Position numbers and translations under genes: made by a program. From Chrysochromulina tobinii (Eukaryota): a stretch of DNA of 41,834 nucleotides. The stretch is from NCBI GenBank assembly GCA_001275005.1, contig JWZX01003115.1, positions 1-41,834 on the forward strand, given 5' to 3'. Shown here in pieces: positions 1,673-41,834 of this stretch. The notes beneath the pieces were generated by a model. It ran no database searches. It was given only the letters and a program-made list of their open reading frames with translations, and was not told the origin of the DNA. Position 1 is the first letter of the stretch, and each line of letters opens with the position of its first letter.

Positions 1673-4600
1673 ATGGCGACTCCATACCCCTCGTTACGCG
1701 TTACAGACCGCATCCTCTATTTCCTCTTGGCGATCGGCTTTTTTGGCATCACGAACGCGCAGCTCTGCGCGGAGACGTGCTACGAGTACGCCTCAGACGG
1801 TGTATGCGACGATGGCGGACCCGGAGCTGAGGACGCAAGCTGTGCGCATGGCACTGACTGCACCGATTGCGGCCCCCGAGAGCATCTTCCGCCACCGTTC
1901 TCGCCGCCCTTGCCGCCAGTACAGCCTCCAAAACCAGCGCAGCCTGGGTGGCACATCGAGCGCCACGGCCGCAGGCGTTACCCTCCCCCACGGGACTATG
2001 CGCAGGAGCTCCAGCCGGGCGGCCACCCGCAGGCGTTCGCACCCCCCAACTGCTTGGCACCAGGGCGGGTGGGCTGCCTCGCGATGCCGAAGCCGGCCCG
2101 TGCCAAGCCTGCAGCAGGCGTTCGAGCTGCGCTCTTGCCACCGGCTTGCTTCGTGTCCTCCGAGCCAGGGTGCCTGCGCCTCCCCAAGCCTTTGGCAAGG
2201 ACGGGGAACGAGCCGCTGGATAGTGGCGAGCCTGTACTTCGATTCAGAATGGATCGCACCGCAGCGCTGCTGAGCGGGCGGGCAACGCTGCCGCCCGGCG
2301 GCAGCGAGTTCACGAGCTCGATCGCGGCGGCGGACGTGGACGGCGACGGCGACCTCGACGTGCTGCTGGGGAACTATGGTAGTCCCAGCCTGGTGCTGCT
2401 CAACGCGGGCGACGGCACCTTCCCGACGAGCATCGAGCTGCCCGGCGGCAGCGCGTCCACGAACTCGATCGCGGCGGCAGACATGGACGGCGACGGCGAC
2501 CTCGATGTACTGCTTGGGAACTATGGTAGTCCCAGCCTGGTGCTGCTCAACGCGGGCGACGGCACCTTCCTGACGAGCATCGAGCTGCCCGGCGGCAGCT
2601 CGGACACGAGCTCAATCGCAGCTGCGGACGTGGACGGCGACGGTGACCTCGACGTGCTGCTTGGGAACTATGGTAGTCCCAGCCTAGTGCTGCTCAACGC
2701 GGGCGACGGCACCTTGCTGATGAGCATCGAGCTGCCCGGCGGCAGCGCGTCCACGAACTCGATCGCGGCGGCGGACGTGGACGGCGACGGCGACCTCGAC
2801 GTGCTGCTTGGGATCAATGCCAGTCCCAGCCTAGTGCTGCTCAACGTGGGCGACGGCACCTTCCTGACGAGCATCGAGCTGCCCGGCGGCAGCTCGGACA
2901 CGAGCTCAATCGCAGCGGCAGACGTGGACGGCGACGGCGACCTCGACGTGCTGGTTGGGAACAATGACAGACCCAGCGTTGTGCTTCTCAACGCGGGCGA
3001 CGGTACCTTCCCGACGAGCATCACGCTGCCCGGCCGCAGCTTCGGCACGAGCTCGATCGCGGCGGCGGACGTGGACGGCGACGGTGACCTCGACGTGCTG
3101 CTTGGGAAATATCTTGGCGGTTCCAGCCTAGTGCTGCTCAACGCGGGCGACGGCACCTTCCCGACGAGCATCGAGCTGCCCGGCAGCAGCGCGGGGGGCA
3201 CGAAGTCGATCGCGGCGGCGGACGCGGACGGCGACGGCGACCTCGACGTGCTGCTTGGGATCGATAGCGGCGGTCCCAGCCGACTGCTCCTCAACCTGGT
3301 CAACGTGGGCGACGGCACCTTCCCGACGAGCATCGCGCTGCCCGGCAGCAGCGCGGGGCACACGAGCTCGATCGCGGCGGCGGACGTGGACGGCGACGGC
3401 GACCTCGACGTGCTGCTTGGGAACTATGGTAGTCCCAGCCTAGTGCTGCTCAACGCGGGCGACGGCACCTTCCTGATGAGCATTGAGCTGCCTGGCGGCA
3501 GCGCGAACACGTACTCGATCGCGGCGGCAGACGTGGACGGCGACGGCGACCTCGACGTGCTGGTTGGGAACTGGGGTAGTCTCAGCCACGTCCTGCTCAA
3601 CGCGGGTGACGGCACCTTTCCGACGAGCGTCGAGCTGCCCGGCGGCAGCGAGTACGGGAGCTCAATCGCGGCGGCGGACGTGGACGGCGACGGTGACCTC
3701 GACGTGCTGCTTGTGAACTATGACAGTCCCAGCCTAGTGCTGCTCAACGCGGGCGACGGCACCTTCCTGACGAGCATCGAGCTGCCCGGCGTCAGCACAT
3801 CCACGAACTCGGTCGCGGCGGCGGACATGGACGGCGACGGCGACCTCGACGTGCTGCTTGGGAACTATGGTAGTCCCAGCCTAGTGCTGCTCAACGCGGG
3901 CGACGGCACCTTGCTGATGAGCTCTGCGCTGCCCGGCGGCAGCTCGGACACGAGCTCAATCGCAGCGGCGGACGTGGACGGCGACGGCGACCTCGACGTG
4001 CTGCTTGGGAACTATGGCAGTCCCAGCCTAGTGCTGCTCAACGCGGGCGACGGCACCTTCCTGACGAGCATCGCGCTGTCCGGCGGCCGCTCAGGCACGA
4101 GCTCGATTACGTACACGAACTCGATCGCGGCGGCGGACGTGGACGGCGACGGCGACCTCGACGTGCTGCTTGGGAACTATGGTAGTCCCAGCCTAGTGCT
4201 GCTCAACGCGGGCGACGGCACCTTCCCGACGAGCATCGAGCTTGGCGGCAGCGCGAACACGTACTCGATCGCGGCGGCGGACGCGGACGGCGACGGCGAC
4301 CTCGATGTGCTGCTTGGGAACTCGGGCGGTCCCAGTTATCTTCTGCCCTTCATCAGATGCTCTCAGCCTGGCACTGCACGCAGTCGCTTCGGCAACGGAT
4401 GCATCCGCTGCCCCGCTCCCTCTTCACGCCGCGACGACCATTTTGATATCTGCTACGAGTGCGAAGAGCACACGGAGCTCGACTACCGCGGCGAATGCTC
4501 CTCCTGCAAGCCCGGCAGCGATCGCTCCGTGGGAGCCACGGAGTGCACCGCCTGCCCGCGCGGCAAGCGCCAAGGTAAGGCTGGCACCTTCTGTGTCGAC

Positions 4601-19359: not shown

Positions 19360-21415
19360 TCAGCGAGTCGTCGGTTTGGCAGCGTCCCGCGACTGAGCAT
19401 CTACCTCAACCACGTTGTCTTCAGGCAGCTCGCACGCCTCCGCCAGTGCCTCTAGGCGCTTCTGCTCCTGCGCTTCAACAAAGGTCGCCAGGACGAACTC
19501 GGCGACGGTCGCGGCGGCGAGCGTTGGAAGGAAGATGGAGGGATTCTCTTGCGTGAGCTCGAGTAGGAGCACGGAGGCAGTCAGCGGGCTGCGGAAGAGC
19601 GCCCCGAGTGTGGCCGCCGCTCCCACGATCGCATACGCCGGGGCGGCGGCAACGTGGAGGATGGGCAGCACCCCCCACGAGCCAGGGACCACATCGAGGG
19701 AGAGCTGAAGCGACACGAGGTTGGTGGCTGCAAACTCCGTCGCGCTCGCCACGAGGGAGTGGAAGGCCGCGCCGGCAGTGGCGCCGATGAAGAGAGAGGG
19801 AGCAAAGAGGCCACCGACGAGACCAGCCCCGAGCGAGAAGGCAGTCGTCCCTATCTTGAGGAAGGAGTAGCCGAGGAGTGAGAGGGGCGGCTCGGGCTGC
19901 GTGTTGGCGAGGATGGCATTGAGTGTGGCGTAGCCGTTGAACAGGATGCGCGGGAACGCGATGCCAATGCTGCCGACGACCGCCGCGGCAGCCATCGGCC
20001 GGAGGAGAAGCGGCACACTCGAGCCGATTGCGCCCTCATCGGACCACACAGACAGAGAGGTTGTGCGAGCTTCGCGCACCTGACGAGGGAGGTAATCATC
20101 AGTCATCATCAGTCATCATCGGTCATCATCAGTCATCATCGGTCATCATCAGTCATCATCAACGCGCACAAGGATCGCGAGAGCGCCCGCGAGCACGCCG
20201 AGGCCGAGGTAGAAGGGCATCTCGAGCAGCGGCGACTCGAGCGTGAACTCGGGCGACTGCAGTCGAAGGGAGCCCTGGAGGATAGCCTCACTCACCAGAG
20301 CGGCACATGACGCCGAGAGCGCGACGGCGGCTACGCGGAGAGTGACGCGGGCGGGCGAGGCCTGCCACATCCGCGCGCGGCGCAGAGAGATCCGTTGGGC
20401 GGACATCTCGCTCGTCTTCATCTCGTTGAGAGCCTGCGCGTACGCAAGCCTCATCTCCGTCTCCGCCTCCTTCTCTCGCGCCCTTCCACCTTCCGTGGCC
20501 GCAATACCGTCCAGCTGGCTCCGGACCTCAGCTGCGTTGTTGTCCGTTCCCGTCGAGAGCAGAGCAGAATCATCGCACAAGGCTTCGACAGTCACATCTG
20601 GATTGAAAAAGGGCTCGATGGTCGAAGCATACGCATCGCCATACTCGGTGAATCTCTCCTGAATCGGTAGCCGCGTCCTTCCTTTGGGCTCCGGCGGGCG
20701 CAGTGCCCTGGTAGCCCGTGCCCACCCACGTGAGATCAGGGGCCGGAGCTGTAGCGCAGGCCGGCCACCTTCTGGCGCCACGGTCTCGCAGGCGAAGACG
20801 ATGCCGGCAATAGGAGCGGAGAAGCCGGCGGCGACACCGGAAGCCACGCCCGCCGCTACAAGGATCGTATCTCGCTCCTCGCAAAGACCGCCGAAGATCC
20901 GGGCAGCAATGCCTCGCCCGATGTCCACCGCGGGGCCCTCCGGCCCGAGGCTGTTGCCCGTGCCGAGTGTAGCTGCTGCTGCGGATGCCCGAGCGACGCC
21001 GCGTCTGCTCCAGTCGAACAGAGATTCATCCGGCTTTGGCGGCTTGTCAAAGCCTGGGGTGCCTACTCTCAGCACACCGACGGCCAAGCCACCGAGCATT
21101 GGCGTCGCTACCGAAATGACCTCTGGTGGCAGAGCCTGAATCCAGAACGCGTTCGGATTCAATACGATGGGTTCAATGCCCTCGATGCCAAGTTTGAGGC
21201 ACGCGACGCCGACCCCAGTCAAACAACCCAACGCTACCGCCCGAGGCAGCAGAGTGGATGCAAATTGTGGTAGTGGAGTTGGGAATGCCGGTACTGGAGG
21301 AGTATCTTGGGCCATGCGTGCAGGTGCGATGCGCACCTGAGGCACGGCTGCGGCAAAGGTGTGATAGCCATTGGCAGCCGGCACGGAGGAACACGAGCAG
21401 CCACCGATCAAGCAT
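19360..21415 (-). CDS. CLC chloride channel/transporter family protein, probably plastid-targeted; two exons (21415-20170, 20079-19360)
   Basis: Motifs GNSLGPEGPAV, AAGVASGVAAGFSAPIAG, GGLFAPSLFIGA, RSPLTASVLLLELT. The two ORFs join in frame across a 90-nt GT-AG intron. The ATG at 21415 is 1 nt out of frame with the body; the next in-frame ATG is at 21315. Confidence 0.85.
20080..20169 (-). mobile_element. 90-nt phase-0 spliceosomal intron, candidate introner copy 1
   Basis: Gene-sense: GTGCGCG-TT-(GATGATGACY)x6-GATGATTACCTCCCTCGTCAG | GTGCGCG. It contains an in-frame stop; removal gives GALAIL-VREART. The intron call is strong; mobility is inferred. Confidence 0.8.
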
Positions 21416-24876: not shown

Positions 24877-27053
24877 CTACTGCGGCGGCGCGCCACTGCC
24901 ATACCAGTTCCACACGCATATGCACGCGTCCTTGCCGACGGAGACAACTTGTTTCCCGTCGGGCGCCCACTTGGCCATGGTGACTTCGTCGGAGTGCGCG
25001 GCGCCGATCGAGAGGAGCGCGGACGTGCGCAGGTCCCACACCTGCACTTCACCCGAGGCGGTGCATGCAAGCAGGAAGTCTGACGAAGAGCCGTCCATAG
25101 GTGGCGAGAGGTCGATGTGGGTGAGGCGACGGTCCTTGTTGGGATCCTGCTGAGGAGACCACGTGAGCATCATGGAGACTGGTTGCTCCTCGTCGGTGTC
25201 CCAAAATTTGAGCGCGCCCGACGTATCCGCCGTGATGAGCTCGTACTCGCCCCGATCCATCTGCACCATCGACTGCATCGCACCCTCCTTGACGGTGAAG
25301 CACTTGACCCTCCGTGCTTGGTCGAGGTCGATCGACACGATCTTCTTGTCCTCGCCACAAGAGTGGATGACCTTGGAGCGCGCATACGGGTTGCAGTCGA
25401 CGCAGAGCGACGTGATACGCTTCGAGTGCTCGTCAAAGTTGCCGTGCAGCTGGCGAGACGGCCCGTCGCCCCACACGCGCACTGCTCCGTCCCGGCCGCC
25501 GCTGACGATGTAGAGAGCGCAGCGCACCTGATGAGGGAGGCAATTAGGTGTCATCAGGTGTCATCAGGTGTCATCAGGTGTCATCAGAGGTCATCACAGG
25601 TGACGAGGTAGAGAGCGCAGCGCACGATGCAAGAGACGCCCCCGCGGTGCGCCTTGACGATTTCCCACAGCGGCGCGCCGGTGCGCGCGTCGTAGCAGCG
25701 CACGTTGCCGTCGCTCCAGCCCGAGAGGCACTCGAGCGTGTCCTTGTCGATGGAGAGGCATTCGGCGCGCACGACCGCGTACGCATCCGTCGTCTTGACG
25801 GGTGGAGGTGTCTCAAACTCGACTCCATAGTGAGAGAGCTCCCACCGCCGCAGATGGCCAGATTCGGCGGAGCTGATGAACCACTCGGAGCTGCCGCCGA
25901 AGCTGATGCAGTTAATCGGCTGCGGGTGCGACGCGAGCAGCGGCTCGTAGCGCGCCGCATAGTTGCCGTCCGGTCCCAACGGTCGCAAATCGCGCGCGTC
26001 GAGCAGGTAGATGTTCCCCAAGCTCGTGCCCGCGAGAACCTGACGCCCGTCGGCCGAGACGGTCACGGAGCGCACCTCCCCGTCGAGCTGTGCGTCGGCG
26101 AGGCAGGTCCACTGCAAGTCCTCGCCCTGGAGCAGCTTGAGGGTGCCGTCGCCCATGCCGCAGTAGGCGAGGGGCGCGGTGGCGCTCCCCTCGCCAAAAG
26201 GGTCGCCCGCATCACGCACCGCGAGCGACAGCAGCCCGCCCTTGGAGACGGGTACGCACGCACGGAAGACCATGGCGGCCGCGTTGAAGACGCACAGCTC
26301 GCCCGCGCTTGAGCCGCACACGAGGAACCATGTGCCGCTCGCGTTGCACACGGCTGTCGCGCAGTGGTACTCGCGCGCCAGCCCCGAGGAAGGCAACTGG
26401 AAGAGAGACTGCTTGATGTTGAACTGCATGGTGTGCACGTCAAACTCCATGAGGTACTTGATGACCTTGCTGTTCGCAGCCGTCTGAAGCTGGTACGCCG
26501 CGTGCTTCTGCGTCTTGCTGCGCGACGGGATCACCTCGCCCCACGCGAGGAAGTTGAGCTGCCGCTGCTGCGTCTTGGAGAGCACTGCGAGCTGACCCGT
26601 GTTCGTATGCCACACGCACAGCTTGGCGCCGCCGGGCTGGTCATCGCTGCCCGCGAGGAACAGGTCATCGGGCGAGAAGGCGAGCACGCGCACGCGGTTG
26701 CGCGAGAAGGCGATGCCGTCGTGCAGCTCCATGAGCCGGTAGAGCGGCTGCCTCGATGCGTAGTCCCACACGATCACCATCGCCTCCGAGTTGGGTACGC
26801 GCGTGGTCGACGTCTGGCCCGAGGCGATCAGCGCGCCTGATGGCGAGATGGCCATGCACGTGATCGCCTCGTTGTGCCCGCGCAGGAACTCCTGCTGGTG
26901 AGGGTCCTTGACGTCCGAGATGACAATCAAACAACCGGTGAACGAGATCATGACCGACGCGTCCGTCGGGTGGTACTGGACCGAGCCGCCGCACGAGCCG
27001 TCGAAGCCCATCATGTGCTCCAGCTCGAGCGGGTCGAGCTGTTGCTCCTCCAT
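24877..27053 (-). CDS. CFAP52: CFAP52/WDR16-like WD40 axonemal protein; two exons (27053-25626, 25527-24877)
   Basis: N-terminus LELEHMMGFDG...QQEFLRGHNEAITCMAISPSGALIASGQ, GWSDGNVRCYD, IVSGGRDGAVRVW, and C-terminus HSDEVTMAKWAPDGKQVVSVGKDACICVW. Exons join in frame across a 98-nt intron. Could be a paralogue rather than the orthologue. Confidence 0.72.
25528..25625 (-). mobile_element. 98-nt phase-0 spliceosomal intron, candidate introner copy 2
   Basis: Gene-sense: a 25-nt copy of the next exon's start (24/25 identical), then a 10-nt array (TCATCAGGTG x3 plus variants on the + strand), then AATTGCCTCCCTCATCAG. Removal gives GVSCI-VRCALYIVSGG. Confidence 0.82.
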
Positions 27054-28266: not shown

Positions 28267-31200
28267 TTACGCCCTCAGCATGCGCGTGCGCGAGCGGGAG
28301 AGCGCCTTCTTGCAAAACGGGCACTTGAGTTCTATGGCTACCAGCCCGCTCGTCGACTCCACCAGCCTGCCATGGTCAGGATCGTCCGGGGTGAGCCAGC
28401 GCCCGAGGCAGTCAAAGTGTGCCGTCTGCCCGCAGCATGGGGTGTATCCCCACCCGCCGTCGGGCTCGGACGGGTCTGGTCGATCGCGCGCCGTGCCGAT
28501 CAAGGTCACTTCCCCGCCCAAGCAGCAGCCGAAGCAAGGACCCTCCTCCTCCGATTCCACTTCCATCTCCACCTCATCCAACTCGTCGTTGTTGCCAGCA
28601 TGCTCCACGTTGAAGCTGGAAGAAGCGCCTTGCATGTGAGCCGGTCGGCCGTCCAGCCACTGTCGCCTTTCATAGGGAAGGCCCGCCTCTGTGACGGAGG
28701 CTGACAGGGCCACAGCGAGCTGCATGCCCTCCTCGTCCTCGTACCAGTCCTCGGCCTCCTGTGGGCGCTTGCGGCTGCTGCCGCTCGAGCGCTGCGGCGT
28801 TGATGGGAGCATTGCAGGCGCTGGGCGCGCTGCTGGCGAGCAGGCTGCTTGCAGGCCAAAGTCCACGGCGAGCTGGCGGCGCATGTCCCGCCGCTGGACG
28901 CACTCGAGGTCGTCACACAGGTGCTCCGGCGCATTGTGGCTGCACTGGCCATGCGAGCTTGTGCGCATATGCGACTTGAGGCTTCCCGACCGCGAGAAGC
29001 GCTTGCCGCAGCCCTCGTGGTTGCAGGCGAACGGCCGCTCGCCCGTGTGCGTGCGCTTGTGCGCCGTGAGGTGGCCCGACCGCGAGAAGCGCTCGCTGCA
29101 GCCCTCGTGGTCGCAGGCATACGGGCGCTCGCCCGTGTGCGTGCGCTTGTGCCTCGTGAGGTTGTCCGACCGCGAGAAGCGCTCGCCGCAGCCCTCGTGG
29201 TCGCAGGTGTACGGCTGGTCGCCAGTGTGTGTGCGCTTGTGCGTCGTGAGGTGGCTCGACCGCGAGAAGCGCTTGCCGCAGCCCTCATGGTCACAGGCAA
29301 ACGGGCGGTCGTCTGTGTGCGTGCGTATATGCGTCGTGAGGTGGCTCGACTGCGTGAAGCGCTTGCCGCAGCCCTCGTAGTCGCAGGCAAACGGCCGCTC
29401 GCCCGTGTGCGAGCGTATGTGCGCCGTGAGGTGGCTCGGATCCGAGAAGCGCTTGCCGCAGCCGTCGTGATCGCAGGCGTACGGCTGGTCGCCCGAGAAG
29501 CGCTTACCCCAGCCCTCGTGCTCGCAGCTTGCTTGGGGTTCCCGCTCACCTTGCGCTGTCATCTGGAGCGCTGAAGCTGGGACAGTGACCTCGAGATCGG
29601 GTGATGGAACATGGGAAGGGTCTATATGCTGCGGCTCCGGCGCGGCATGGCTTGAGCTCGCACTAGAGCTCCCAGCACCACTCCCAGCCCCACTGCTCTT
29701 ATTGCCACGAGAGGAGGGTGGGCCGGGCGGGATCGAGTTGGGCGGAGACTCTGGACGCAAAGCCCCACCACCCCTAGGGTCAGTCCGCAGTTCAACCGCG
29801 TTAACGTTAACGCGGTGTTCGAGCAAGCACAGGTCGAGCTGGGCGCGTTCGCGCGAGACTCGGAAGTGATCGGCCAGGCGGCGATAGCGATGACAGACGC
29901 ATAGAAGAAGCAGAAATGACGTCAGAAATGCTGTCGCCAGGAATGGTATCAGAGGAGAGACTGGGGGCAGCCCTGGTGGCACTGGTGGCACTCGCGGCGG
30001 GAGCAGAGGCCGCGATGGAGGGGATGGAGGCGGCGGCATGAGACGAGCAGCAAAGCAAGCTCCTACGTCTCCACTTCTTTTGAGTGTGCTCGAGCCGAAC
30101 GATGCCTCGCTGGTGAAAGAGCCTGTTACAAGAGCACCGTCGACGCCATCTTGGGCGCCTGCGCCCACGTAGGCGATGCTCTTGCCAAAGTCACTCAGCT
30201 TGCCACCCCCCTGGATGGCCCAGTCGATGGTGCCCGATGCTGTCACGTGCATCACGAAAACGTCGGAACTGCCTCGGCTTGTGAGCAACGTCGAGCCGAA
30301 CGATGCCTTGCCGCTGAAAGTGCCCGTCACGAGAGCACCTCCGCTGCCGCGATTGTATGCGACGCCGGAGCCAAAAGAGTCGGCCGTGCCGCCCGCCTGG
30401 ACGGCCCAGTCGACGACGCCTGCCGCCGTCACGTGCATCACGAAAGCGTCGGCACTCGTGTCTCCGCTTGTGAGCACTGTCGAGCCAAACGATGCCTCGC
30501 CAAAAAAGTAGCCCGTCACAAGAGCACCGCCGCCGCCATCATTCGCGATGCTGCGTGCATACGTATAGTCCGTGCCGCCCGCCTGGACGGCCCAGTCGAT
30601 GGCGCCCGCCGCCGTCACGTGCATCACGAAAGCGTAGGGAAGGCCTCGGCTTGTGAGCACTGTCGAGCCGAACGATGCCTCGCCGCTAAAGGTGCCCGTC
30701 GCAAGGGCACCGCCGCCGCCATCATTCGCGATGCAGCGTGCATACGTTGAATCCATGCCGCCGGCCTGGACGACCCAGTCGATGGCGCCCGCCGCCGTCA
30801 CATGCATCACGAACGCGTCGTCACTGCCTCGGCTTATGAGCGACGTCGAGCCGAACGATGCCTCGCCACTAAAGGAGCCTGACACGAGAAAACCATCAAC
30901 GCCATCGTGGCCGCCCACGCGGGCGATGCTGTTGCCTGAGTCAAACAGCGCGCCACCCGCCTGGAAGGCCCAGTCGATGGCGCCCGATGCTGTCACGTGC
31001 ATCACGAAAACGTCGGAACTGCCTCGGCTTGTGAGCAACGTCGAGCCGAACGATGCCTTGCCGCTGAAGTCGCCCGTCACGAGAGCACCACCCGCGCCAT
31101 CGTATGCGACGCCGAAGCCCCAAGAGTCGGCTGTGCCGCCCGCCTGGACGGCCCAGTCGACGACGCCTGCTGCTGTCACGTGCATCACGAAAGCGTCGAC

Positions 31201-31407
31201 ACTCGTGTCTCCGTTTGTGAGCACTGTCGAGCCAAACGATGCCTCGCCATAGAAGTAGCCCGTCACAAGAGCACCGCCGCCGCCATCATTCGCGATGCCG
31301 CGGCCATACGTCGTGTCCTTGCCGCCCGCCTGGACGGCCCAGTCGATGGCGTGGTGCATGTCTGGGTGCGAACTTGGGAGCGGCGGGAGCTGGAAGGGGA
31401 GCTTCAT
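28267..31407 (-). CDS. Chimeric protein: 7-repeat beta-propeller, Pro linker, TM helix, six C2H2 zinc fingers, UIM-like motif, RING-like domain
   Basis: One uninterrupted 1046-aa ORF: seven DWAVQAGG-type repeats, TM LIPFLATAFLTSFLLLLCV, CxxxxC...H...H fingers with TGERP linkers, EEGMQLAVALSAS, and CFGC...CCGQTAHFDC...CPFC. Confidence 0.85.
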   Translation of the reverse strand: MKLPFQLPPLPSSHPDMHHAIDWAVQAGGKDTTYGRGIANDGGGGALVTGYFYGEASFGSTVLTNGDTSVDAFVMHVTAAGVVDWAVQAGGTADSWGFGVAYDGAGGALVTGDFSGKASFGSTLLTSRGSSDVFVMHVTASGAIDWAFQAGGALFDSGNSIARVGGHDGVDGFLVSGSFSGEASFGSTSLISRGSDDAFVMHVTAAGAIDWVVQAGGMDSTYARCIANDGGGGALATGTFSGEASFGSTVLTSRGLPYAFVMHVTAAGAIDWAVQAGGTDYTYARSIANDGGGGALVTGYFFGEASFGSTVLTSGDTSADAFVMHVTAAGVVDWAVQAGGTADSFGSGVAYNRGSGGALVTGTFSGKASFGSTLLTSRGSSDVFVMHVTASGTIDWAIQGGGKLSDFGKSIAYVGAGAQDGVDGALVTGSFTSEASFGSSTLKRSGDVGACFAARLMPPPPSPPSRPLLPPRVPPVPPGLPPVSPLIPFLATAFLTSFLLLLCVCHRYRRLADHFRVSRERAQLDLCLLEHRVNVNAVELRTDPRGGGALRPESPPNSIPPGPPSSRGNKSSGAGSGAGSSSASSSHAAPEPQHIDPSHVPSPDLEVTVPASALQMTAQGEREPQASCEHEGWGKRFSGDQPYACDHDGCGKRFSDPSHLTAHIRSHTGERPFACDYEGCGKRFTQSSHLTTHIRTHTDDRPFACDHEGCGKRFSRSSHLTTHKRTHTGDQPYTCDHEGCGERFSRSDNLTRHKRTHTGERPYACDHEGCSERFSRSGHLTAHKRTHTGERPFACNHEGCGKRFSRSGSLKSHMRTSSHGQCSHNAPEHLCDDLECVQRRDMRRQLAVDFGLQAACSPAARPAPAMLPSTPQRSSGSSRKRPQEAEDWYEDEEGMQLAVALSASVTEAGLPYERRQWLDGRPAHMQGASSSFNVEHAGNNDELDEVEMEVESEEEGPCFGCCLGGEVTLIGTARDRPDPSEPDGGWGYTPCCGQTAHFDCLGRWLTPDDPDHGRLVESTSGLVAIELKCPFCKKALSRSRTRMLRA
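28950..29490 (-). repeat. Coding array of six C2H2 fingers, 90-nt period
   Basis: Recurring GAAGCGCTTGCCGCAGCCCTCGTG-type units on the + strand at 90-nt spacing. Confidence 0.92.
30080..31350 (-). repeat. Coding array of seven ~61-aa beta-propeller-type repeats
   Basis: Repeated GCCTGGACGGCCCAGTCGA on the + strand. Units 1-3 are closely duplicated as units 5-7. Confidence 0.9.
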
Positions 31408-34000: not shown

Positions 34001-35000
34001 ATGTCCGACGACAACAAGGTTCTCGTTCTCCAGGCCACCGGCAAGGCCGGGCGCAACATCGCCCTCGCTCTGAAGAATGCTGGCTTCGAAGTGTTCGGCA
34101 CCACTCGCTCCGCCAAAAACAACCTCGCGTCGAAGGGCATCACGCCCGTCATCGCTAACTACACGGTACAGGCTGACATTGACCGCGCGATCAAGGAGTC
34201 CGGCGCGAAGAAGGTGATCGGCATCACTGACTTCTTTAAGGCCGCGAAGTCCAGGGGCGCGGTCGAGATCGCGCACGGCCAGGCGCAGTTCGAGGCCTGC
34301 AAGGCCGGCGGCGTCGCGCACTACATCTTCGTCTCTGTCGTGCAAGCCAGCGATATCGCGTGGCCGGCTGTCTGCAAGCACATCTCTACGAAGGCCGAGA
34401 TGGAGAAGAACCTGAAGGCGTCCGGCATTCCGCACTCCATCCTGCGCCCGTGCGTCTTCTTCGAGAACTTTGACGACGCAGCCAATTATAACCCGCTCAA
34501 GAAAGGCGCAGTGAAGTTCCTCTCCAAGTGCGTGACCCCAACCGGGGCTTACAAGTGGGTCTCCACATACGACGTGGGTCGCGCCGCCGCCGCGCACTTC
34601 AAAGACCCCGCCAAGTACCTCGGCACGACTCTCGAGTGCATGTCGTGGCAGGGCAGCCTCGATGACGTCGCACGCGCACTGCAGACGGTCTCCGGCGTGC
34701 CTGTGAAGGCCTCGCTCGCTATGCCCATCTGCCTGCGCAAATTGTTCCTGAAGGACCTCGATGGGATGTGCAACTTCTACGACGAGGATGGCCTGAAGGA
34801 CCACATTGCCGAGTTTAAGGCAGTCGTGCCGGACCCGCTGGATGCAGAGGGCTGGTTCCGGTTGGTACCTCCCTTACTTCTCTGACCTCCCTTACTTTCT
34901 TTCTGTACTCTCTTACTTCCTACTGTCTTACTTCGTACTGCCTACTTCCTACAGGTTCCACAACCGCTACGCCAACGGAAAGAAGATCGTCGACACGTAA
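34001..35000 (+). CDS. NmrA-like atypical SDR (Rossmann fold); two exons
   Basis: VLVLQATGKAG, HISTKAEME, SILRPCVFFENF, WVSTYDVGRAAA. A pyrimidine-rich intron ending TACAG at 34954 leads to terminal exon FHNRYANGKKIVDT*. Confidence 0.88.
34855..34954 (+). other. Short phase-2 spliceosomal intron built from degenerate CTTACTT repeats
   Basis: Sharp switch to C/T-rich repeats; acceptor CTACAG|G. Donors at 34855 (GTTCCG) and 34861 (GTTGGT) both preserve frame. Confidence 0.75.
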
Positions 35001-41740: not shown

Positions 41741-41834
41741 TCAGGTCCTCAGCATGCGCGTGCGCGAGCGGGAGAGCGCCTTCTTGCAAAATGGGCACTT
41801 GAGCTCGATGGCCACCAGCCCGCTCGTCGACTCC
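41741..41834 (-). CDS. 3' end of a gene running off the window; RING-like C-terminus paralogous to the 28267 gene
   Basis: Translates ESTSGLVAIELKCPFCKKALSRSRTRMLRT*; 84/88 nt identical to 28273-28360. Confidence 0.8.
   Translation of the reverse strand, partial: ESTSGLVAIELKCPFCKKALSRSRTRMLRT

What the first reader, a model, noticed from the sequence alone, without database searches (positions are those of the whole stretch)
25503..25625. Candidate intron-generating element: variable target duplication + 10-nt tandem array + conserved acceptor end (clearest copy)
Seen: the 98-nt intron opens with GTGCGCTGCGCTCTCTACCTCGTCA, a 24/25 copy of the next exon's first 25 nt. Between the two copies lies a 73-nt insert made of about six 10-nt units and ending ATTGCCTCCCTCATCAG. 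The duplicated target supplies the GT donor and the insert supplies the AG and branch-like CTGAT/CTAAT motifs, so splicing removes the insert plus one target copy without a scar. Known: the best-characterised introners (Micromonas, Aureococcus) are non-autonomous DNA transposons with TIRs and fixed short TSDs. Inference: long variable TSDs, no TIRs, and a constant head with a repeat tail (read on the antisense strand) fit target-primed or telomerase-like reiterative synthesis at staggered breaks better. I cannot tell whether this family is already published.
Basis: partly seen in the sequence, partly recalled or inferred. Interest (0 to 1): 0.9.

Follow-up and report, generated by a model that had tools for sequence, protein, structure and literature searches.

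The report
Algal introns built from intron halves
In a freshwater alga, this intron and many relatives consist of a duplicated piece of the gene's own coding sequence joined to the rear half of a shared intron sequence, which likely means that existing introns seed new ones by being copied, probably from their RNA, into splice-site-like spots of working genes.

Summary
Observation confirmed. 25528-25625 (minus) is a 98-nt phase-0 intron in a WD40 (CFAP52-like) gene of a Chrysochromulina parva-like haptophyte; an RNA contig reads across the scarless junction and homologues run through the site without a gap. It belongs to a family of roughly 10^3 sites: 73 of 145 copies carry an exon-start duplication (8-55 nt; 1.7% in shuffles), 128 of 145 downstream exons begin GT/GC, and copies lie on the sense strand of coding exons, clustered in some genes. 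The telomerase-like reading is not supported: a second family with an unrelated, array-free 3' half shows the same footprint (23 of 48), mirror-image introns duplicate the exon end, and arrays change by local slippage between strains. Best reading (0.42): the 3' half of an existing intron is copied into a donor-like site, likely by partial reverse splicing plus microhomology repair; DNA-only template switching is close behind (0.30). No empty allele or enzyme was found. The scan noted this family before on another piece of this genome (e1-2577349). Ten paper searches found no description; known donor-from-TSD introners have fixed 3-8 nt duplications.

The parts
25528..25625 (-). Intron A, 98 nt, phase 0
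   Evidence: homologues contiguous across the site
25601..25625 (-). Intronic copy of the exon start (25 nt, 1 mismatch); supplies the GT donor
   Evidence: (D17)
25503..25527 (-). Exonic copy: first 25 nt of exon 2 (VRCALYIV)
25541..25600 (-). Six 10-nt units, five with a CTGAT/CTAAT branch-type motif; last motif puts a likely branch A at 25544 (-17)
   Evidence: branch role inferred
25528..25544 (-). Constant family 3' end ATTGCCTCCCTCATCAG with the AG acceptor
25599..25604 (-). Inner in-frame GT (GTCACC) used as donor in the public C. parva model P0083
   Evidence: coordinate deduced from the 7 extra residues
25626..27053 (-). Exon 1 coding part of WD40 (CFAP52/WDR16-like, name recalled) host gene, 476 aa
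24877..25527 (-). Exon 2 coding part, 216 aa plus stop
20080..20169 (-). Intron B, 90 nt, same 3' end, different 10-nt unit, 7-nt exon-start duplication, in a CLC-type channel gene

Best explanation
This is a spliced intron made of a duplicated exon start plus the 3' half (branch-motif region and acceptor) of a large intron family, and it was likely born when that half was copied from another family intron, probably from its RNA, into a donor-like GT site on the sense strand of a coding exon. Shown: the anatomy, the splicing, the family, the donor-like and sense-strand targets, the 3-4 nt overlap at the duplication/array junction, shared tails between some neighbouring introns, and repeated re-duplication of the unit. 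Inferred steps: (1) the 3'-OH of an excised intron still held by the spliceosome would be joined to the target G (first step of reverse splicing only), giving the exact CAG|G junction; (2) a break in the other strand 4-55 nt downstream would prime copying of exon start and intron tail; (3) the copy would stop short of the intron's 5' end and be joined by microhomology to the filled-in upstream end, which duplicates the exon start; (4) selection keeps events whose duplication starts with a usable donor and gives an intron of at least about 50-60 nt; (5) slippage then grows the array and re-duplicates or collapses the unit. No dedicated transposase or element-specific end sequence would be needed.
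For: Exact 3' junction, variable 5' junction with overlap mean 3.4 nt (14 of 73 measurable) against 0.34 in the control. Unrelated 3' halves share the footprint: 73 of 145 and 23 of 48, so it is tied to being an intron end, not to one sequence. Downstream flank is sense-coding in 94, antisense in 13, non-coding in 6 of 113, whereas AG|GTR sites in the same loci split 124/108/105 of 337; Pfam hits 10 of 138 sense frames, 0 of 91 antisense frames. G follows the head in 139 of 145; AG precedes the first copy in 31 of 60. Neighbours within 2.5 kb share longer tails (7.8 vs 5.9 nt, permutation p 0.0008, 57 pairs); L139's second unit has an 18-nt duplication and the unit type of its neighbour L140, not of its own first unit. 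The copy starts at exon base 1 in 48 of 65 strong matches, with one clear imprecise mosaic, as expected if most duplications arise at birth. Precedent for exact 3' and truncated, microhomology-joined 5' junctions: linear group II intron retrohoming (PMC3280974); model of reverse splicing into R-loop DNA (PMC4540971; PMC11146597).
Against: [quoted passage not shown] Inserts have a median of 59 nt, well beyond the branch at -17, so the template must be debranched or read through. Mirror-image introns (constant 5' half, exon-end duplication) need an extra assumption, while a DNA switch gives both forms symmetrically. In about 6 of 11 introns whose first exon-start copy follows a head, the intron begins with little or no duplication, and 38-44 nt units occur in tandem: many long duplications are plainly secondary. 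Most neighbour pairs do not share tails (54 of 57 below 20 nt). The exact-match search may under-sample decayed non-coding copies. No empty allele was seen in the strain pairs aligned.
Confidence: 0.42

Rival explanations
1. DNA-only template switching. A stalled strand slips by microhomology into the array of its own or a nearby intron, copies through the acceptor (or donor) and returns at an AG|GT match; one switch re-duplicates an existing intron end, two switches seed a new site, and collapse between GT matches leaves an apparent long TSD.
For: Explains both mirror forms, multi-copy units (21 of 73), unit-number differences between strains (L118 1 vs L151 3), intermediates, junction overlap and clustering (69 further family introns within 3 kb of 24 focal sites, 63 on the same strand) with ordinary repair chemistry.
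Against: 5 of 24 focal sites, and both window copies, have no family intron within 3 kb, so distant donors are needed, and these should also fill neutral non-coding AG|GT sites on either strand, which is not seen. Imprecise collapse products are rare (1 clear of 65). No excess match to the donor's -4 base (T in 10 of 60).
Confidence: 0.3
2. Non-autonomous HUH (Replitron/Helitron-like) elements. Read on the antisense strand, the constant end is joined behind an RC dinucleotide by strand transfer and the other end is fuzzy, with a variable TSD.
For: Replitron-1 of Chlamydomonas inserts orientation-specifically behind RG with variable TSDs and fuzzy ends, and a Replitron protein is reported at one locus of C. 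tobinii (PMC10288648). Here RC precedes the constant end in 128 of 145, and one head variant is a 7-bp hairpin beside 10-nt repeats.
Against: Unrelated ends share the footprint; the commonest head variant barely pairs; non-coding DNA is avoided; no transposase family in 229 flanking frames; that paper found no TSDs in other Replitron families.
Confidence: 0.1
3. One reading: a short antisense RNA with a constant head and repeat tail is written in by target-primed or telomerase-like reiterative synthesis at staggered breaks.
For: Variable 8-55 nt duplications, overlap at the tail junction, 10-nt arrays.
Against: Array-free family with the same footprint; unit variants private to each intron and polymorphic between strains; sense-coding restriction; neighbour-shared tails.
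Confidence: 0.08
4. An ordinary introner with its own donor and a 0-4 nt TSD inserted whole; all long duplications are later remodelling.
For: Full-length forms starting GTACGTTGATTGC exist and link the array to the second family's core; Chrysochromulina MAG introners with 4-bp TSDs that carry the donor are published (10.1101/2022.06.06.494994).
Against: Downstream exons begin GT in 52 of 72 introns even where no duplication is detected, so the target itself must be donor-like at birth; few imprecise mosaics.
Confidence: 0.08

Closest known systems
Symbiodinium and Polarella glacialis ILE classes 4, 5, 6, 8, 10 (bioRxiv 10.1101/2020.10.14.339549; parts 1-2 of 4 read)
   Same: Element supplies the acceptor, the TSD supplies the donor; conserved G at exon +1; phase bias follows the exonic dinucleotide
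   Different: Fixed TSDs of 4 or 8 nt per class, TIRs in Symbiodinium, whole-intron similarity; here 4-55 nt, no TIR, only half of the intron is shared
Chrysochromulina sp. MAG introners (10.1101/2022.06.06.494994, Fig. 2C legend; passages read)
   Same: Same genus, no TIRs
   Different: 4-bp TSD, carry the donor and co-opt the acceptor: the polarity of the rarer mirror form seen here; that survey removed low-complexity and part-length matches.
Micromonas IEs and fungal ILEs, R-loop reverse-splicing model (PMC4540971, PMC11146597; passages read)
   Same: Always on the coding strand, short, non-coding, clustered insertions
   Different: Modelled as clean whole-intron insertion without TSD; here half-introns with a long duplication
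Linear group II intron retrohoming (PMC3280974; passages read)
   Same: Exact 3' junction by partial reverse splicing, truncated 5' junction joined through microhomology
   Different: Ribozyme with its own RT/endonuclease, engineered assay, no target duplication reported
Replitron-1 of Chlamydomonas (PMC10288648; passages and section 9 part 1 read)
   Same: One exact end at a dinucleotide, one fuzzy end, variable TSD
   Different: RG not RC target, 0.9-3.6 kb elements with terminal direct repeats, not intron-forming
Intron gain by tandem duplication or double-strand-break repair (summarised in PMC3296678; passages read)
   Same: Direct repeats flank new introns; microhomology
   Different: Single events with unrelated or no filler; here the filler is always an intron half from a few families

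Membership tests
Introner, broad sense | Similar introns at many unrelated genes | tested here: met
   146 introns on 100 contigs; 10 unrelated Pfam host families
Introner, broad sense | Spliced out without changing the protein | tested here: met
   RNA contigs for A, B and L054:4012-4113; scarless 692-aa P0085
Introner, broad sense | Position absent from orthologues | tested here: met
Introner, broad sense | Presence/absence polymorphism within the species | tested here: inconclusive
   None in 7 locus pairs aligned; P0085 may be mRNA or an empty allele
Introner, broad sense | End-to-end similarity between copies | tested here: not met
   Only the 3' part is shared; 5' part is local exon sequence
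MITE-type (DNA transposon) introner | Fixed short TSD | tested here: not met
   8-55 nt above threshold, 4-7 nt cases too
MITE-type (DNA transposon) introner | Terminal inverted repeats | tested here: not met
   No conserved 5' end of inserts (by eye); only a hairpin inside the last 20 nt
MITE-type (DNA transposon) introner | Copies outside genes and in both orientations | tested here: not met
SINE / non-LTR (TPRT) | Variable-length TSD | tested here: met
SINE / non-LTR (TPRT) | Insertion regardless of gene strand, common outside exons | tested here: not met
SINE / non-LTR (TPRT) | Partner RT element or source RNA sharing an end | not testable with these tools
   No genome held; no RT family in flanking frames
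Replitron | Left end behind RG, short terminal direct repeats | tested here: not met
   RC in 128 of 145; no terminal direct repeat seen by eye
Replitron | Rep HUH transposase with matching ends; fuzzy end traceable to parent | not testable with these tools
   needs the genome
Reverse-splicing IE/ILE type | Coding-strand only, short, non-coding, no TIR | tested here: met
Reverse-splicing IE/ILE type | Whole intron inserted without TSD | tested here: not met

The most novel reading that the evidence does not exclude
Chrysochromulina parva carries the genome-wide footprint of spliceosome-driven, half-completed reverse splicing into DNA: any intron's 3' half can be planted at a cryptic donor with a break-derived duplication, so introns beget introns without a transposon, and a cultured alga with about a thousand such sites makes the long-proposed intron-transposition route directly testable.
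Probability: 0.35. Interest if true: 0.92.

Novelty: new variant of a known kind. Interest (0 to 1): 0.7.

Why it matters
How new spliceosomal introns arise is an open question; published introner surveys leave about 72% of elements unclassified (PMC12130899) and filter out low-complexity or part-length families like this one. Here the birth scar is legible at hundreds of sites in a cultured species with public genomes, on several unrelated intron halves and in both mirror forms. Either leading explanation (RNA-based half reverse splicing, or DNA template switching between introns) would be a transposase-free route by which introns multiply. It also shows why gene models of this alga carry false short residue duplications (P0083).

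Tried and rejected
Whole genome not held and metagenome records not searchable by handle, so no genome-wide table. Viral contigs: 11 hits to the 17-mer, none with arrays, judged chance; 0 hits to the 19-mer. GTDB genomes: 0 hits. One metagenome hit (L142) judged chance and dropped but still inside the 145. Laying RNA on L054 gave thin cover and one junction only. A lax core pattern for the second family pulled in coding noise (138 candidates) and was replaced by a strict one (48). The mirror-form scan (44 of 205 vs 1% null) is inflated by duplications inside arrays; only examples picked by eye are used. Strain pairs showed no empty site. Assembly artefact rejected: same element and flanks in independent assemblies and RNA junctions. 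Coding tandem repeat or intronised exon rejected: stops in all frames of the insert region read through and shared tails. Read et al. 2013 (E. huxleyi 10-11 nt intronic repeats, recalled) is not held and is not used as evidence. No structure or complex prediction was relevant.

Full report
Observation. The window is 62-68% GC, intron-poor eukaryotic DNA. At 25528-25625 on the minus strand lies a 98-nt GT-AG segment whose first 25 nt repeat the first 25 nt of the following exon at 24/25. The 73 nt between the copies are six 10-nt units and CCTCCCTCATCAG. Removing the 98 nt gives a 692-aa WD40 protein. In Logan contigs of three RNA runs the gene breaks at 25527/25608, and the X19 contig continues from 25527 into 12 letters of the upstream exon, which is the spliced form. 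A contig of run X2 holds head plus exon 2 unspliced, so retained or DNA copies are also present. The second window copy, 20080-20169, has a 7-nt duplication and is skipped by RNA contigs in 2 of 3 runs. These are contigs, not raw reads, and the runs may be one campaign.

Host and empty site. The protein's 90% cluster contains a Chrysochromulina parva model, P0083, identical at 691 of 692 aligned residues but keeping VRCALYL twice, i.e. using an inner GT; P0085 is the scarless 692-aa form. Of 44 homologues examined, 27 had both flanks placed: 25 abut exactly and 2 have a few extra residues.

The family. Among 145 distinct terminal heads (one chance hit and a few allelic pairs included), the exon start is duplicated within 400 nt upstream in 73, against 1.7% of shuffled pairings; the next exon begins G in 139, GT in 106, GC in 22, against 4.5% GT and 12.9% GC in window coding DNA. 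Duplications above the threshold run 8-55 nt (median 19), 32 of 73 are perfect, 21 of 73 have two or more unit copies, AG precedes the first copy in 31 of 60, and the duplication end overlaps the array phase by 3.4 nt on average (14 measurable of 73) against 0.34 (chance extension from both sides would give about twice the control). Shorter matches of 4-7 nt directly before the array are common in the other 72, of which 52 also have GT-starting exons. Duplication and insert length are inversely related (rho -0.46, n 40; shortest single intron 50 nt). Eleven same-site pairs among 10,073 cross-assembly pairs put the number of exact-match sites near 900 (rough, assumes one species).

Targets. A codon model trained on the window (103 of 110 correct when left out) of 107 downstream flanks sense, with phases 0:1:2 of 49:15:25, in the order of GT availability, 343:147:294. 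With a non-coding class added, flanks split 94 sense, 13 antisense, 6 non-coding of 113, while AG|GTR sites in the same loci split 124, 108, 105 of 337. Pfam hits 10 of 138 sense and 0 of 91 antisense frames, none a transposon family. Copies cluster: 69 further family introns lie within 3 kb of 24 focal sites, 63 on the same strand, yet 5 of 24 stand alone (size-biased sample). Neighbours share slightly longer tails than unlinked pairs (7.8 vs 5.9 nt; 3 of 57 vs 51 of 10,509 at 20 nt or more; pairs are not independent).

The footprint is not tied to the array. An unbiased search for exon-start duplications turned up a second family whose shared part is a 24-nt core beginning GCATGCAAGTGCTCA followed by a pyrimidine tract and CACAG, without 10-nt units, and a third end, CTCCCTCATTGCATGCAG. 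In the second family 23 of 48 carry the duplication (8-40 nt; null 3.2%) and 38 of 48 exons begin GT/GC. A full-length form beginning GTACGTTGATTGC joins array units to that core, and several introns with this start duplicate the end of the upstream exon instead (L060 23 nt, L132 27 nt, L081 19 nt, L084 19 nt, L042 22 nt; picked by eye). Strain pairs 98-99% alike differ in array length and in unit number (L118 one, L151 three) but showed no empty site (7 pairs). Of 65 strong matches in 142 introns, 48 start at exon base 1, most others differ by early mismatches, and one (L066) is a clear mosaic; in 11 introns the first copy follows a head, about six of them after a 5' part with little duplication. 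L139's second unit has the repeat type of its neighbour L140.

Mechanism. What is copied is an intron half; what is targeted is a donor-like site in a transcribed exon; one junction is exact and the other is a microhomology join; and the same event recurs on existing introns. I rank partial reverse splicing with break-primed copying first (0.42) because it alone predicts the avoidance of neutral non-coding sites for unlinked donors and the indifference to tail sequence, and because linear group II introns leave the same pair of junctions (PMC3280974, passages). The duplication by fill-in is my inference and is not in that paper. DNA-only template switching (0.30) explains the mirror forms and re-duplications more simply and surely accounts for part of the long duplications.

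Comparison with print. Ten searches found no description of this family. Read as passages or sections: 10.1101/2022.06.06.494994, PMC12130899, 10.1101/2020.10.14.339549 (parts 1-2 of 4; 45, 46), PMC11146597, PMC10288648, PMC4580454 (70: one intron per gene on average, about 40% coding, no mention of these repeats in the passages shown), PMC3280974, PMC3296678, PMC4540971. No supplements were opened; the introner catalogues and subscription papers may hold the full-length form.

Verdict. Real, recurrent and mechanistically informative: a new variant of introner-like intron gain, interest 0.70. The footprint is shown; the route is inferred; no enzyme, source RNA or empty allele was found.

Noticed in passing
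L013, L024, L027, L029, L035, L045, L046, L056, L061, L070, L081, L083, L115: Second intron family with a conserved 24-nt core (GCATGCAAGTGCTCA...) and no 10-nt array, carrying the same variable exon-start duplication (23 of 48).
   Followed up: yes
L060:-559, L132:-142, L081:-893, L084:-2181, L042:+4074, L013:-2875, L116:-1542: Mirror form: donor-side sequence of the family followed by a 19-30 nt copy of the upstream exon end.
   Followed up: partly
L027, L060, L089, L099: Full-length form starting GTACGTTGATTGC that joins array units to the second family's core; may be the ancestor of both and related to the published Chrysochromulina introners.
   Followed up: partly
L019:+715, L022:-1602, L024:-4210, L037: Third 3' end, CTCCCTCATTGCATGCAG, with 12-32 nt exon-start duplications.
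   Followed up: partly
L067:1-4500: One stretch holds about 15 family introns within 4.5 kb, while this window has 2 in 42 kb.
   Followed up: no
window 34861-34954 (+): Probable 94-nt intron of TACTT-type repeats in an NmrA-like gene (name recalled); contains CCTCCCTTACTT, resembling the family head; exon 2 and intron both start GTT. Not covered by RNA lays.
   Followed up: no
window 21385: One base is left out in the DNA run and two RNA runs laid: likely an assembly error or allele in the CLC-type gene.
   Followed up: no
window 28270-28800 and 41748-41834: Multi-copy sequence (depth about ten times the baseline in the DNA run) at the end of a C2H2-type zinc-finger ORF with 90-nt repeats; its start recurs at the window end.
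   Followed up: no
window 2293-4335 and 30162-31351: Coding tandem repeats of 147 nt (12 copies) and 183 nt (6 copies), beta-propeller-like.
   Followed up: no
P0083 (public C. parva model of this gene): Gene model uses the inner GT and so shows a false or minor 7-residue duplication; similar errors are likely at many family introns.
   Followed up: partly
L115:-319 to -430: Two family introns separated by only 9 nt, a possible micro-exon.
   Followed up: no
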